A program made the position numbers and the translations under genes. A stretch of 3,085 bases of DNA from a virus (lineage: Duplodnaviria; Heunggongvirae; Uroviricota; Caudoviricetes). The DNA is taken from IMG/VR virus record IMGVR_UViG_2541047960_000015. One strand, given 5' to 3'. Positions within the stretch are counted from its first letter, which is position 1. Each line of letters opens with the position of its first letter. Below are positions 75-3,085 of this stretch, one piece after another. The notes beneath the pieces are model-generated. The model had not been told where the DNA came from, ran no database searches, and saw only the letters and a program-made list of their open reading frames with translations.

Positions 75-1361
75 TTACCCAACTTTCTTATGGGGCATAC
101 ATGGGACACTTTCAGATAGTCTTTTGTTAAGGAGTTCTATCTGTTCGTGATTGTTGTCTTTCATCCATGCTCCGTAAACATTGAATACCATTTGTGCGTT
201 TGTGTGGCCCATCTGGCTTGCGATAAAACTAGGATTAGCTCCTGCGGCAAGTGACCAGCATGCATAAGTATGCCTGGATTGGTACGATTTTCTGTGTCTC
301 AGACCTGCGCGTTTTAAGATACTTGTCCATGACTCCCTGATGGAGTCAACCTTGTAGTGAGGTCCGGACAACTGCTGCTGTTTTGTTACCTGAGGACTAA
401 AAACAAAAGTGCATTTATGCACAGCAGTTCTCCCATATTCCCTCTGCTTCACCTCTACAGAATGTTGCTTTCCAAGCATGGTCATTTCCGCCTGGCTTTT
501 AAGAGCATCAATAGCTGGTTGAACCAGATGAATTGTCCTTCCGGTGCCTGCATCGGTTTTTGGTGGAGTGAATTCGCCAAGTTTTGTATAATTTCTACGG
601 ATGGTTATAGTCCTTGCTTTAAGGTCTATATCTTCCCATGCCAGCGATACCAACTCCCCGTGACGAATACCCGTGTATACAGCGAGAATCCACAGGTTTT
701 TTGTTTGTTGATGACGGCAAGCCTCAATAAAACGAATAAATTCGTCACGGGTGAGAGGATCTGGTTTTACCTTGGACTTTTTTAAGGGAGCCAGACCGTT
801 AAATGGGTTTCCTGAGGTATAACCATTATCTGTTGCAAATTGAAACATTCCAGCTATGGTTGTCATATAGTAGTTTACCGTGACCACTGAGCGCCCTTTT
901 ATGGAAGAAGTCTTTCCATTAGAAAGCTTTTGGTAACCGGTCAACAAATCTCTCCTTACGAAAAGTAAATCCTCTTTTGTTATGGATGAAACCAGTTTTT
1001 TTTCACCTAACATTGGTAACATGTTTTTAATTACTGACTGGTAACGGTTAAGTGCATTCGCACAAATCTCAATTTTCTTAAGGTCCAACCATTTTTCCGA
1101 AAGTGCCTTAACGGTTATCTCTCTTTTTCCCAGACCAAAGTGTTTCAGGTTAGGGGAATTAGGGAACTGCGCGGCGTAGTCGAAACTCCCCATTCTGATT
1201 GCAAAACAAACGGAAGTGCGAAGTTCACCAGCGATCTTCCGGTTTTTGGCTGTGTCAGGAACACCGAGGTTTTCTCTGACACGTTTGCCATTATAGTGAA
1301 ACCATATACGGAGTGATCCTCCATGGTTTTCAACGCCTGTCGGGTATGATGCGTTACTCAT
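75..1361 (-). CDS. int: Prophage integrase, tyrosine recombinase family (IntR/Rac-like; N-terminal arm-binding region plus C-terminal catalytic domain)
   Basis: Uninterrupted 428-aa ORF. ATG at 1359-1361 is preceded on the minus strand by GGGAGG (SD) with a 4-nt spacer; TAA stop at 75-77. The C-terminal part carries tyrosine-recombinase signature blocks: 'AVYTGIRHGEL' (box I Arg), 'SRHTYACW' (box II Arg-His) and 'GHTNAQMVFNVYGAW' (His plus candidate nucleophile Tyr). The N-terminus 'PTGVE..G..RIWF...GKR.RE' and overall layout match my recollection of E. coli Rac IntR and related lambdoid integrases. Not confirmed by search. Confidence 0.95.
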   Translation of the reverse strand: MSNASYPTGVENHGGSLRIWFHYNGKRVRENLGVPDTAKNRKIAGELRTSVCFAIRMGSFDYAAQFPNSPNLKHFGLGKREITVKALSEKWLDLKKIEICANALNRYQSVIKNMLPMLGEKKLVSSITKEDLLFVRRDLLTGYQKLSNGKTSSIKGRSVVTVNYYMTTIAGMFQFATDNGYTSGNPFNGLAPLKKSKVKPDPLTRDEFIRFIEACRHQQTKNLWILAVYTGIRHGELVSLAWEDIDLKARTITIRRNYTKLGEFTPPKTDAGTGRTIHLVQPAIDALKSQAEMTMLGKQHSVEVKQREYGRTAVHKCTFVFSPQVTKQQQLSGPHYKVDSIRESWTSILKRAGLRHRKSYQSRHTYACWSLAAGANPSFIASQMGHTNAQMVFNVYGAWMKDNNHEQIELLNKRLSESVPCMPHKKVG

Positions 1362-1394: not shown

Positions 1395-1649
1395 TTAACC
1401 GGAACTTGCATTTTTGGCACCTGGTTGTTTCTGGTTTTCGATCCATCGCATAATTTCTTCGATGTTGTACAGGCATTCACTGTAGTGCCCCGGATCACCT
1501 TCTACAGCGTAATGGCGGTATTCTTTTCCCTGCATCCATGACTTTCTTCTTGCCCGCTCAATGGTGCCAGGCTTTAGCCCTGTTGATGCAATGAGGACTC
1601 TCTCCGTACACCATTTGCTGGGGGTTATCTGATAGATGATTGTCTGCAT
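1395..1649 (-). CDS. xis: Excisionase-like protein (putative Xis / recombination directionality factor)
   Basis: 84-aa ORF immediately upstream of and co-oriented with int (33-nt gap). ATG at 1647-1649 is preceded by GAGGT (SD, about 5-nt spacer). The pattern 'W...(12)..TGLKPGTIERARRKSWM.GKEYRHY' resembles the lambdoid excisionase-like fold (Trp ... Thr-Gly ... basic wing). Size and position are typical of xis. Confidence 0.8.
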   Translation of the reverse strand: MQTIIYQITPSKWCTERVLIASTGLKPGTIERARRKSWMQGKEYRHYAVEGDPGHYSECLYNIEEIMRWIENQKQPGAKNASSG

Positions 1650-1667
1650 GCCAACCTCATAAAATTT

Positions 1668-1802
1668 TCATCCACGGCAGTGGCACCACACTTCAAACAT
1701 TCGCTTCACAACTTCACGACAGTAGAAGCCGTCAACATCTCGCGTCAGGTCATAGCGATTGCCGTAACGCTGGTGGACCCATCGTTCAAATGCTTTATTC
1801 AT
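1668..1802 (-). CDS. Small hypothetical prophage protein (44 aa), not in the supplied ORF track
   Basis: Own translation: MNKAFERWVHQRYGNRYDLTRDVDGFYCREVVKRMFEVWCHCRG, ending at TGA 1668-1670. Strong SD (AAGGAAG) 6 nt upstream of the ATG. It tightly fills the gap between the upstream ORF stop (1806) and the xis RBS/start (1649), and is co-oriented with the operon. No family recognised. Confidence 0.5.
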   Translation of the reverse strand: MNKAFERWVHQRYGNRYDLTRDVDGFYCREVVKRMFEVWCHCRG

Positions 1803-1805
1803 TCT

Positions 1806-2048
1806 TTACTTCCTTTTTATGGCTCGTAATTTTTTCAGGTGCTTTTCCTGCTCAGTGTCCGCGAGAATTTTGCGGTACCCCTGGTGGTCAATATGTTCGA
1901 ACAGGCAGTTTAACTCACCAATGCGTACCCGCCCGGATCGTCCGTCCATCCGTCGAAAGAACACTGAGTGCTCAGTGATGCGAGTAATCACCACGGGGTA
2001 TCCAGCTCTGTCCGTGTATATCTGACCGCGTTGAATCAAAGCGAACAT
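1806..2048 (-). CDS. Small hypothetical lambdoid prophage protein (80 aa); possibly DUF4222-type small family (from memory, unverified)
   Basis: ORF-track entry 1806..2084 begins at a TTG with no RBS. The in-frame ATG at 2046-2048 is preceded by GGGGA (SD, 7-nt spacer), so I place the start there, giving MFALIQRGQIYTDRAGYPVVITRITEHSVFFRR.... Co-oriented with the operon; stop TAA 1806-1808 sits 3 nt from the next start. The 'G.IY.DR.G.PVVI.R......FFRR' pattern recalls a small conserved prophage family, but I cannot confirm it. Confidence 0.6.
   Translation of the reverse strand: MFALIQRGQIYTDRAGYPVVITRITEHSVFFRRMDGRSGRVRIGELNCLFEHIDHQGYRKILADTEQEKHLKKLRAIKRK
1809..1815 (-). promoter_or_regulatory. 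Shine-Dalgarno sequence (AAGGAAG) for the 44-aa ORF, embedded in the 3' end of the upstream gene
   Basis: Minus-strand sequence reads AAGGAAG-TAA-AGA-ATG: SD, then the stop codon of the upstream 80-aa ORF (1806-1808), one codon, then ATG at 1800-1802. This is a translational-coupling arrangement. Confidence 0.5.
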
Positions 2049-2132
2049 GTGGTTATCCCCATCGACAAATCGAGAACACAACAAACGCTGCTGCGAATAC
2101 CACCCCCAGAGTTACGATTGCATCAGGCCAGC

Positions 2133-2795
2133 TCATTGATTCACCTCCTGCCTGTCGTCCGGCATTCGCTCACTACAGCTTATCCAACCATCCGGAGTTA
2201 CCGGAGAGTTGCCCGATAGTGCATTCTGCTCCAGTGATGCTTTTACAAACCACGCTGCCTGAACTATAACGCCATGAATCCAGCGCAAATCAGCATCGCG
2301 ATCTTTCTTTTTCATCTTTTCGCCACTTAAGGCCTTGCTTATGTGGCTGCGTACCAGGTCTTCATGTAATTCCTTCGCCTCCTCAATGGTGAAACCACCA
2401 GGCAGAAGAGCCGGAGTTACCGGAGAGCTGGTTGACGCTTCCGGGATTTCCCGAAAATTATTGGTTGACGAATTCTTGCTTTCCCGAAAGTTTCCGGACT
2501 GAAGCATGGCGGTGCGGCAGGCGTTCCATATTTCGGCAGCAATATCGCGCTCGCTATCGGTTAATTTGTACGTGGAAACATAGCCAGAGAGCATTTCTAC
2601 GTTTTCCGGAGTTGCTTCTTCCGGCACTACCGGCGCTGGCAAGGCAGCGTGATAGTAGAGTGGCATAGTTTTGTACAGTGGTTCGCCAGGACTTCTGTCA
2701 ACCTGATTCCATTCTTCAACCCAGGCATCAACAACCGCTTTGCTGGTTGATACATGTTCTTCTGAATCTACATTTTGTCCTGATATACAGAACAT
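2133..2795 (-). CDS. Ea22-like / DUF551-like modular early-region prophage protein, 5' region disrupted by IS insertion (220 aa from first ATG; frame stays open up to the IS junction at 2869/2870)
   Basis: 220-aa ORF from ATG 2793-2795 (preceded by AGAGG, 5-nt spacer) to TGA 2133-2135. The same frame continues upstream without a stop through 2796-2869 (...LDIRDNIERRAYEIALASLEAEAV-M...) and only terminates inside the IS end, so the native N-terminus appears to be cut off or separated by the IS. The C-terminus 'SPVTPDGWISCSERMPDD' resembles the start of the DUF551 motif (W-I-x-x-x-E-R-L/M-P) seen in Ea22-like proteins, but the protein ends only 8 residues later. Family assignment is from memory. 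Confidence 0.7.
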   Translation of the reverse strand: MFCISGQNVDSEEHVSTSKAVVDAWVEEWNQVDRSPGEPLYKTMPLYYHAALPAPVVPEEATPENVEMLSGYVSTYKLTDSERDIAAEIWNACRTAMLQSGNFRESKNSSTNNFREIPEASTSSPVTPALLPGGFTIEEAKELHEDLVRSHISKALSGEKMKKKDRDADLRWIHGVIVQAAWFVKASLEQNALSGNSPVTPDGWISCSERMPDDRQEVNQ

Positions 2796-2869: not shown

Positions 2870-2894
2870 TGAACCGCCCCGGGAATCCTGGAGA
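2870..2894 (+). repeat. Putative left terminal inverted repeat (IRL) of the IS3-family element
   Basis: Terminal about 25 bp beginning TGAACCGCCCCGGG. Length is assumed from typical IS3-family IRs; the right IR is not in the window, so the extent cannot be verified by self-complementarity here. Confidence 0.5.
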
Positions 2895-2923
2895 CTAAAC
2901 TTCCTGAGAAAGAGGTAAACAGG

Positions 2924-3085
2924 ATGACTAAAAATACTCGTTTTTCCCCCGAAGTCCGTCAACGGGCAGTCCGTATGGTTCTGGAAAGTCAGAGCGAATA
3001 TGACTCACAATGGGCGACAATTTGTTCCATTGCTCCAAAGATTGGCTGTACGCCGGAGACTCTGCGTGTCTGGGTTCGCCAGCAT
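2924..3085 (+). CDS. IS3-family transposase OrfA, N-terminal 54 codons (helix-turn-helix region); truncated by the window edge
   Basis: ATG at 2924-2926 is preceded by AAGAGG (SD, about 8-nt spacer). Translation [54 protein letters not shown] is open to the window end. HTH-like segment '[18 protein letters not shown]'. Confidence 0.9.

What the first reader, a model, noticed from the sequence alone, without database searches (positions are those of the whole stretch)
1668..1802. Unlisted 44-aa gene with a strong RBS, translationally coupled between the 80-aa gene and xis
This ORF is not in the supplied track but has one of the best ribosome-binding sites in the window (AAGGAAG, 6-nt spacer). 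Its start lies 3 nt after the upstream stop and its stop 18 nt before the xis start, so the three genes are packed as one translational unit. The product is basic and ends in C-x11-C-H-C (Cys28, Cys40, His41, Cys42), a possible but weak metal-binding arrangement. Small proteins co-expressed with xis could be recombination-directionality cofactors, host-takeover factors or anti-defence peptides. I do not recognise the family.
Basis: seen in the sequence. Interest (0 to 1): 0.5.

Follow-up and report, generated by a model that had tools for sequence, protein, structure and literature searches.

The report
Conserved small phage gene beside xis
The 44-codon reading frame is a real phage gene under strong selection, already annotated elsewhere as a hypothetical protein. 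It is a mobile early accessory gene of unknown function, not a metal-binding protein or an excision helper.

Summary
The ORF at 1668-1802 (minus strand) is exactly as described: ATG start, AAGGAAG Shine-Dalgarno with a 6-nt spacer, 3 nt after the upstream stop, 18 nt before the xis ATG.

It is a real gene:
- The frame is intact in 99 of 99 related loci.
- dN/dS is about 0.1, lower than for int or the DUF4222 neighbour.
- The five other frames carry stops in some or all homologues or show dN/dS above 1.

It is not new. RefSeq annotates it as WP_001030157.1, phage BP-4795 as ORF3, and it matches PHROG 3871 (unknown function). It occurs in 899 of 5426 complete E. coli genomes.

The family is small and, a few doubtfully labelled records aside, confined to Enterobacterales phages. 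It has no Pfam, NCBIfam or PDB relative. The AlphaFold2 model (pLDDT 87) is helix, beta-hairpin, helix.

The proposed Cys/His metal site is not conserved.

The gene usually lies just upstream of xis, but next to several unrelated-looking Xis types. It also occurs in the nin region before Q, and in a siphophage with no annotated int or xis. An obligatory Xis cofactor is therefore unlikely.

The best reading, which is inferred, is an autonomous delayed-early accessory protein that binds a conserved host or phage component. Interest is low to moderate.

The parts
1668..1802 (-). The 44-aa gene (phrog_3871; same sequence as RefSeq WP_001030157.1; homologue of BP-4795 ORF3). It is a C-terminally shortened form of the commoner 47-48 aa protein, which ends ...CRGLSVV.
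   Evidence: ORF listed. Annotated. phrog_3871 match at E = 1.9e-32. Frame intact in 99 of 99 loci. dN/dS 0.12. AF2 model with pLDDT 87.4.
1809..1815 (-). Shine-Dalgarno AAGGAAG of the 44-aa gene. It lies inside the last codons (K-R-K-stop) of the upstream DUF4222 gene, 6 nt before the ATG.
   Evidence: Sequence. Identical in all E. coli-type loci. SD-like motifs 5-13 nt upstream in 10 of the 13 other distinct upstream contexts.
1806..2048 (-). Upstream 80-aa DUF4222 gene. Its TAA stop (1808-1806) lies 3 nt before the 44-aa gene's ATG.
   Evidence: Pfam PF13973 at E = 7.9e-14. phrog_285. Annotated as 80 aa in RefSeq. Distant similarity to RgdR/ECs1581.
1650..1667 (-). The 18-nt spacer between the 44-aa gene's stop and the xis ATG. 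It carries the xis Shine-Dalgarno GAGG at 1658-1655.
   Evidence: Sequence. Junction comparison.
1395..1649 (-). xis, an XisR-type excisionase of the DUF1233 family (84 aa).
   Evidence: PF06806 at E = 2e-29. phrog_539 excisionase. Annotated xisR.
75..1361 (-). Tyrosine integrase (428 aa).
   Evidence: PF12167 and PF00589. Annotated as integrase next to mlrA in strain 266917_2.
2053..2136 (-). Conserved 27-aa hydrophobic ORF between the DUF551-like gene and the DUF4222 gene. It belongs to the same tightly packed operon.
   Evidence: tblastn finds it in 77 loci; the consensus is M-x-W-P-D/E-A, a hydrophobic run, then R-W-G. dN/dS 0.24-0.36. Not annotated.
2133..2795 (-). DUF551/Ea22-like gene. 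Its 5' part is lost or replaced at the IS insertion.
   Evidence: PF04448 at E = 4.5e-5. 98% identical to PhiR5_1 'Ea22' over residues 47-220 only.
2870..3085 (+). Left end of an IS3-family insertion sequence, which I recognise as IS629/IS1203-like. The orfA start is at 2924.
   Evidence: PF01527 HTH_Tnp_1. Thousands of near-identical copies, annotated IS3 family transposase. Prophage similarity ends at 2871. The IS629 name rests on my own knowledge.

Best explanation
The ORF is a genuine protein-coding gene of a small phage family (phrog_3871) that, a few doubtfully labelled records aside, is confined to phages of Enterobacterales.

In this prophage it sits at the distal end of the leftward early operon. 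It is probably translated from its own Shine-Dalgarno sequence and coupled to the DUF4222 gene upstream and xis downstream.

The product is a 44-48 residue domain predicted as helix, beta-hairpin, helix. An aromatic and aliphatic core (F5, Y17, L19, Y27, V32, M35, W39) and conserved charged residues (E6, D18, D22, R29, R34) appear to hold it together; no metal is needed.

It behaves as an autonomous, mobile accessory gene. The same protein turns up upstream of different xis genes, in the nin region before Q, and in a small cassette inside the tail module of a siphophage that has no annotated int or xis.

The most likely mechanism, which is inferred and not shown, is the one used by other phage early proteins of this size. 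It would bind and modulate a conserved host or phage macromolecule early in lytic growth or after induction. Excision itself would not depend on it.
For: Shown:
- Frame intact in 99 of 99 loci.
- dN/dS 0.12, against 0.21 for int and 0.22 for the DUF4222 gene.
- No alternative frame is a plausible coding frame.
- The start codon and the N-terminus M-N/H-x-x-F-E are conserved. SD-like motifs occur in most independent upstream contexts.
- The gene is annotated in RefSeq and GenBank.
- It is present in 899 of 5426 complete E. coli genomes, with up to 4 copies per genome.
- A profile search finds 218 clusters at 90% identity; the named ones listed are all from Enterobacterales genera.
- Only 30 representatives reach E <= 0.001 among 1.84 billion proteins, and three of those are spurious repeat proteins.
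- The AF2 model is confident: pLDDT 87.4, H3-13, hairpin, H30-43.
- The core residues are invariant in A1.

Context:
- 12 of 15 full-length species-representative loci have the gene within about 1 kb (at most four ORFs) upstream of an excisionase-like gene, 9 of them directly adjacent. Six of these excisionases are DUF1233-type by tblastn; the other types (AlpA-like, lambda-like) are my reading of the ORF translations. Fels-1's Xis is labelled 933W-like in its record but is 58% identical to the window's Xis.
- The gene lies in the nin region before Q in Intestinirhabdus, Serratia, Providencia and PhiR5_2, and in the nin region of two metagenomic contigs.
- It lies between tail genes, beside DUF551 and DUF2591 genes, in Citrobacter phage vB_CfrS_K1M. 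None of that phage's 96 annotated features is an integrase, excisionase or repressor.
- Salmonella phage CF-SP1 has it at a similar place: an unannotated match upstream of a gene annotated 'decoration protein', homologous by position to K1M's major tail protein.
- No promoter-like or terminator-like site separates the three genes on the coding strand.
Against: - No functional evidence of any kind exists for this family, and no binding partner is identified.
- Nothing informative came from fold or sequence comparison with solved structures or from the PADLOC models.
- The strong positional preference for the slot just before xis is unexplained. So is one natural in-frame fusion to Xis, which has no SD before the xis Met. 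Both leave room for some link to Xis expression or function.
- The protein carries a modest net positive charge (+3 by my count), so nucleic-acid binding is not excluded.
- Translation has not been observed.
Confidence: 0.55

Rival explanations
1. It is a recombination-directionality cofactor. The small protein would work with Xis, by binding Xis, Int or att DNA, to tune excision, and would be kept next to xis for co-expression.
For: - In 12 of 15 full-length species-representative loci, and in most E. coli, Salmonella and Klebsiella prophages, it lies directly or nearly directly upstream of xis.
- Its 3' end often carries the SD of the downstream gene, as ...GTG TGA GGT....
- One lineage encodes an in-frame fusion of the whole domain to a DUF1233 Xis, with no SD before the xis Met. 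It was seen on 2 contigs.
Against: - Proteins 70-90% identical lie next to excisionase-like genes of which some have no detectable similarity to the DUF1233-type Xis. A specific partner would be expected to co-vary.
- The divergent members are in the nin region, far from xis.
- Citrobacter phage vB_CfrS_K1M carries it at 74% identity with no integrase or excisionase annotated among its 96 features.
- In Pantoea loci a LexA-like gene is inserted between it and xis.
Confidence: 0.08
2. It is a small nucleic-acid-binding regulator, possibly stabilised by a Cys/His metal site, that acts on phage or host transcription or translation.
For: - Modest net positive charge (+3 by my count).
- Conserved R16, R21, R29, K33 and R34 on the hairpin and second helix.
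- The neighbouring DUF4222 family includes RgdR, which binds DNA non-specifically and regulates the LEE (PMC3378721).
- The window protein does contain C28, C40, H41 and C42.
Against: - The Cys and His positions vary freely, so there is no conserved ligand set.
- Equally conserved acidic residues (E6, D18, D22, E30) are not typical of a DNA-binding face.
- There is no similarity to any DNA- or RNA-binding fold or family.
Confidence: 0.2
3. The peptide has no function of its own. The ORF would exist only as a translational-coupling leader that delivers ribosomes to xis, or it would be a chance ORF.
For: The spacing to both neighbours is very tight, and the downstream SD overlaps the end of the ORF in the 48-aa forms.
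Against: - The amino-acid sequence is under strong purifying selection, with dN/dS about 0.1 and 12 invariant residues across genera.
- The protein is conserved in contexts with a different downstream gene, or with none on the same strand.
- xis has its own GAGG here.
Confidence: 0.03

Closest known systems
phrog_3871 / BP-4795 ORF3 (YP_001449240.1) / Fels-1 STM0895.1n / RefSeq WP_001030157.1 'hypothetical protein'
   Same: It is the same family. The HMM match is full-length at E = 1.9e-32. The window product is 100% identical to the ORF annotated WP_001030157.1 and 89% identical to BP-4795 ORF3. The position is the same, between the DUF4222 gene and xis.
   Different: Nothing essential. The window carries the 44-aa form, which lacks the last four residues (LSVV or similar) of the commoner 47-48 aa form.
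Small proteins of the lambda exo-xis region (Orf55, Ea8.5, Orf60a, Orf61, Orf63, Orf73/TraR-like, Ea22)
   Same: Same genomic slot, the distal part of the leftward early operon just before xis. Same size class. They are non-essential accessory genes thought to influence the lysis-lysogeny decision or host physiology (PMC8614690; abstracts listed).
   Different: No sequence or fold similarity was detected. Unlike Ea8.5 and Orf73 it has no conserved zinc ligands. This family is not discussed in the section of PMC8614690 that I read (section 15).
Small nin-region ORFs of lambdoid phages (NinD, NinE, NinF, NinH, NinX and similar)
   Same: The divergent members of the family sit among NinB, NinG and NinH and before Q, as small tightly packed delayed-early genes.
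   Different: There is no match to any Pfam Nin family at E <= 1.
RgdR (ECs1581), a DUF4222 prophage regulator of type III secretion
   Same: This is the family of the adjacent upstream gene, not of the 44-aa protein. It shows that small proteins of this operon type can act on the host (PMC3378721; PMC10877973).
   Different: The 44-aa protein is unrelated to DUF4222. ECs1581 itself lies in Sp7, followed by a primase gene, with no copy of the 44-aa gene in that 15.6-kb region.

Membership tests
phrog_3871 (phage protein family of unknown function) | Full-length significant match to the family HMM | tested here: met
   E = 1.9e-32, residues 1-44 against profile positions 1-44 of 48.
phrog_3871 (phage protein family of unknown function) | Conserved core motif F-E ... 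G-x-R-Y-D-L-x-R-D-x-x-G-x-Y-x-R-E-V-V-K-R-M-F-E-V-W | tested here: met
   All 12 columns invariant in A1 are present in the window protein.
Cys/His metal-binding (zinc-finger-like) small proteins | A set of three or four Cys/His ligands conserved across homologues | tested here: not met
   Cys28, Cys40, His41 and Cys42 are each replaced in several homologues, and none is among the invariant or nearly invariant (90% or more) columns.
Cys/His metal-binding (zinc-finger-like) small proteins | Bound metal in the purified protein | not testable with these tools
   This needs ICP-MS or a PAR assay on purified protein.
Recombination directionality factor or Xis accessory protein | Obligatory co-occurrence with an integrase and excisionase module | tested here: not met
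   The gene is present in vB_CfrS_K1M, which has no annotated int or xis. It is also present in nin regions.
Recombination directionality factor or Xis accessory protein | Co-variation with the partner Xis family | tested here: not met
   Proteins 70-90% identical lie next to DUF1233-type Xis genes and next to excisionase-like genes with no tblastn similarity to them, which I read as AlpA-like and lambda-like.
Recombination directionality factor or Xis accessory protein | Effect on excision frequency | not testable with these tools
   This needs a deletion mutant and an att-junction assay.
Any Pfam, NCBIfam or PADLOC family | HMM match at E <= 1 | tested here: not met
   0 families in Pfam, NCBIfam and PADLOC.
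Translationally coupled early-operon gene | Own SD, a gap of a few nt at most or an overlap with the upstream stop, and no intervening promoter or terminator | tested here: met
   4-nt ATGA overlaps are seen in Fels-1, CharmingMan and the nin contexts. Actual coupling is inferred, not measured.

The most novel reading that the evidence does not exclude
The family would be the founding example of a new class of 44-48 residue phage effectors with a previously unseen helix-hairpin-helix mini-fold. It would be shared by temperate and apparently virulent Enterobacterales phages and would neutralise or re-programme a conserved host factor, for example a defence or stress-response protein. A less likely variant is that in some lineages it has been recruited as an N-terminal module of Xis, as the natural fusion in L100 hints.
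Probability: 0.3. Interest if true: 0.55.

Novelty: already known. Interest (0 to 1): 0.27.

Why it matters
The practical gain is annotation. This gene should be listed wherever the track omits it, as VT1-Sakai, phiP27 and several Stx-phage records do.

The biological interest is moderate. A 44-48 residue protein is under stronger constraint than the integrase beside it. It is present in about one in six complete E. coli genomes, including Stx1- and Stx2-converting phages. It has no known function and no structural relative.

Because it travels between the xis-proximal slot, the nin region and a phage without annotated int or xis, its function is likely host-directed. It is therefore a reasonable candidate for small-protein interaction or anti-defence screens. 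Nothing here suggests a new kind of system.

Tried and rejected
1. Metal-site hypothesis: rejected on conservation.
2. Xis-cofactor hypothesis: downgraded by context analysis.
3. Remote homology found nothing:
- Pfam, NCBIfam and PADLOC gave no match.
- The PDB sequence profile search gave only E > 0.6 noise.
- In BFVD the only match near significance is one 47-residue, 43%-identical protein at E = 1.3e-3. The remaining weak matches (E 0.3-0.6, TM about 0.7) lie inside larger uncharacterised phage proteins.
- The AFDB50 library was unavailable.
4. The exhaustive profile search of 1.84 billion representatives returned 30 hits. The three multi-repeat hits (P0112, P0120, P0121) are spurious low-complexity matches.
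5. An hhalign comparison of the family with the window's own DUF551-like protein gave probability 1%.
6. Overlapping antisense ORFs (1640-1978 and 1680-1829, plus strand) were rejected as coding. The antisense frames have stops in 5 to 30 of 30 homologues, and the two frames that are not interrupted in every homologue show dN/dS above 1.5.
7. An Rfam scan found no RNA family in the window.
8. Literature:
- Nothing was found on BP-4795 ORF3.
- The section of the exo-xis modelling paper that I read does not cover this protein.
- The Sakai Ribo-seq supplements held no match to my search terms.
9. The longer database forms (58-106 aa) look like upstream-extended gene calls or fusions, not real domain architectures.
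10. The exact prophage::IS junction was not found in any complete E. coli genome, so the source strain was not identified.

Full report
**Observation**

The window is the left arm of a lambdoid prophage read on the minus strand:
- int, 75-1361.
- xis, DUF1233/XisR type, 1395-1649.
- The 44-aa ORF, 1668-1802.
- An 80-aa DUF4222 gene, 1806-2048.
- A 27-aa hydrophobic ORF, 2053-2136.
- A DUF551/Ea22-like gene, 2133-2795, cut by an IS3-family element that starts near 2870.

- The ATG is at 1802-1800.
- AAGGAAG is at 1815-1809, followed by the 6-nt spacer TAAAGA.
- The upstream TAA is at 1808-1806, 3 nt before the ATG.
- The TGA stop is at 1670-1668.
- An 18-nt spacer with xis's own GAGG follows, then the xis ATG at 1649.

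No promoter-like or terminator-like site lies between the three genes on the coding strand. The single minus-strand terminator-like match sits inside the DUF4222 gene, at the background rate.

**Is it a gene?**

An ORF of 44 codons means little alone, since the window has 44 ORFs of at least 25 aa. Conservation decides the matter.

I collected 16 loci from one-genome-per-species bacterial assemblies, 80 from viral contigs and annotated phage and genome records.
- The frame is open in 99 of 99 full-length homologues, which give 30 distinct nucleotide sequences.
- Pooled Nei-Gojobori dN/dS is 0.12 and the median pairwise value is 0.08-0.11.
- That is lower than for int (0.21) or the DUF4222 gene (0.22) measured the same way.
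- Variable columns concentrate at codon position 3: 28, 18 and 39 for positions 1, 2 and 3.
- The five alternative frames are not plausible coding frames. Four show dN/dS of 1.6-2.1. The fifth (antisense frame 1) gives 0.23 but is interrupted by stops in 30 of 30 sequences. This disposes of the overlapping plus-strand ORFs.
- The start codon and the N-terminus are conserved.
- SD-like motifs occur 5-13 nt upstream in 10 of the 13 distinct upstream contexts outside the E. coli type.

The gene is real.

**Already annotated**

- The identical ORF is RefSeq WP_001030157.1, 'hypothetical protein'.
- Its homologues are ORF3 of Stx1 phage BP-4795, XSB41269.1 of PhiR5_1 and STM0895.1n of Fels-1.
- It matches phrog_3871 at E = 1.9e-32.
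- The exact sequence is on at least 1000 contigs, the counting limit of the look-up.
- The gene is in 899 of 5426 complete E. coli genomes, with up to 4 copies per genome.
- Several records leave it unannotated: VT1-Sakai, phiP27, PPyecE_EH1910, Stx2_EH2246 and ASU11. That explains 'unlisted'.

**Family**

There is no Pfam, NCBIfam or PADLOC match.

A profile search of 1.84 billion representatives finds only 30 proteins at E <= 0.001, three of them spurious repeat proteins. A second profile search finds 218 clusters at 90% identity.

The named hits listed come from Enterobacterales: Escherichia, Shigella, Salmonella, Klebsiella, Enterobacter, Citrobacter, Cronobacter, Pantoea, Serratia, Providencia and Franconibacter. 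The species-representative loci add Trabulsiella, Superficieibacter, Intestinirhabdus and Scandinavium.

Most members are 47-48 aa. The window's 44-aa form lacks the tail LSVV. In the long forms the last codons plus the stop (GTG TGA GGT) carry the SD of the next gene.

**Structure and the metal idea**

AlphaFold2 with the family alignment gives a confident model with pLDDT 87.4. It has helix 3-13, a beta-hairpin around residues 17-28, and helix 30-43.

Nothing similar is found in the PDB:
- Foldseek gives E = 8.9.
- The sequence profile search gives E > 0.6.

In BFVD the only match near significance is one 47-residue, 43%-identical protein at E = 1.3e-3.

The invariant residues in A1 are F5, E6, Y17, D18, L19, D22, Y27, R29, V32, R34, M35 and W39. 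That is a hydrophobic core plus charged pairs.

The proposed ligands are not conserved:
- Cys28 becomes A, V, S, F or G.
- Cys40 becomes R, S or V.
- His41 varies freely.
- Cys42 becomes L, F, A, R, S, H or V.

A metal site is therefore not a family feature.

**Context**

Among the 15 full-length species-representative loci, 12 have the gene within about 1 kb (at most four ORFs) upstream of an excisionase-like gene, and 9 of these are directly adjacent.

The excisionases differ. Six are DUF1233-type by tblastn. The others show no similarity to the window's Xis, and I read them from their translations as AlpA-like or lambda-like. Fels-1's Xis is labelled 933W-like in its record but is 58% identical to the window's. 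Upstream neighbours also vary widely.

In two of the species loci (Intestinirhabdus, Serratia) the gene lies in the nin region just before Q.

The nin region is also where the divergent members sit:
- Providencia, between NinB and RusA/NinH/Q.
- Two metagenomic contigs, after NinH and after NinG.
- PhiR5_2, after NinH.

In Citrobacter phage vB_CfrS_K1M the gene (74% identical) is the last of a five-gene plus-strand cassette with DUF2591 and DUF551 genes, inserted between tail genes on the opposite strand. None of that phage's 96 annotated features is an integrase, excisionase or repressor. Salmonella phage CF-SP1 has an unannotated match (72% identical) at a similar place.

The gene is thus a mobile accessory module. 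It prefers delayed-early accessory slots, and it is not tied to xis.

**A hint the other way**

One lineage (Logan run DRR526068, 2 contigs) encodes the whole domain fused in frame to a DUF1233 Xis. No SD precedes the xis Met.

This shows the domain is tolerated on the N-terminus of Xis. It keeps a small probability for a functional link. With adjacent coupled genes, however, loss of a stop codon is an easy accident. Analogous accidental fusions to DUF4222 (P0199) and to the 27-aa peptide (P0230) exist.

**Mechanism**

What is shown:
- A conserved, constrained protein.
- A confident mini-fold.
- Early-operon placement with signals consistent with translational coupling.
- Independence from any one neighbour.

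What is inferred: like other phage early proteins of this size, it most likely acts by binding a macromolecule conserved across Enterobacterales.

My estimates are:
- Host- or phage-protein binder: about 0.55.
- Nucleic-acid-binding regulator: about 0.2.
- Xis cofactor: about 0.08.
- No function of the peptide: about 0.03.

**Comparison and novelty**

It is a member of phrog_3871 and the same entity as BP-4795 ORF3.

By position it belongs with the lambda exo-xis small proteins and the nin-region small ORFs, but it is homologous to none of them.

It is therefore already known as an annotated hypothetical protein, and nothing is known about what it does.

Interest is low to moderate. It is a widespread, tightly constrained microprotein with no structural relative, present in Stx phages, and worth including in small-protein screens. 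It is not a new kind of system.

Noticed in passing
window 2053-2136 (-): A 27-aa hydrophobic ORF (MSWPDAIVTLGVVFAAAFVVFSICRWG) whose start overlaps the stop of the DUF551-like gene by 4 nt. It is conserved in 77 related loci. The ends are fixed (M-x-W-P-D/E-A ... R-W-G) and the hydrophobic core varies; dN/dS is 0.24-0.36. A distant copy occurs in Pantoea. It is not annotated in the RefSeq, BP-4795 or PhiR5_1 records examined. The exact sequence is absent from the 15-billion-protein collection, where a variant is called in only a few assemblies. It is a likely unannotated small membrane protein.
   Followed up: partly
window 1806-2048 (-): The upstream 80-aa DUF4222 gene is a distant paralogue of RgdR (ECs1581), the prophage-encoded activator of LEE type III secretion in EHEC. 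At the position of RgdR's functionally important RGD motif it has RGQ.
   Followed up: partly
window ~2870-3085 (+) and 2133-2795 (-): An IS3-family element, which I recognise as IS629/IS1203-like, is inserted in the DUF551/Ea22-like gene. Similarity to the intact PhiR5_1 gene covers only residues 47-220. This exact junction is absent from all 5426 complete E. coli genomes searched, so the window may come from Shigella or a draft genome.
   Followed up: partly
L100 3962-4336: A natural in-frame fusion of a divergent copy of the 44-aa domain to a DUF1233 excisionase. No Shine-Dalgarno sequence precedes the xis Met, and a 27-aa MSWPDA... peptide gene lies just upstream.
   Followed up: partly
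window 1650-1670 compared with L053, L063, L066 and others: The 44-aa and 48-aa forms differ by a short replacement at the 3' end. In the 48-aa forms the stop and the following bases (GTG TGA GGT) serve as the SD of whatever gene follows. This makes a conserved module boundary that is reused with different downstream genes.
   Followed up: yes
L013 (record titled Chryseobacterium sp. 18061) and phage record OM284015.1 (Elizabethkingia phage EKP1): Typical enterobacterial copies of the gene (80-84% identical) occur in records labelled as Flavobacteriia hosts. These may be contamination or mislabelling rather than true host range.
   Followed up: no
L012, L016, L017 (Pantoea loci), ORFs beside the match at 3001: A 120-129 aa ORF that looks like a LexA N-terminal DNA-binding domain (my reading of the translation) sits immediately next to the small gene, upstream or downstream, between it and xis.
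   Followed up: no
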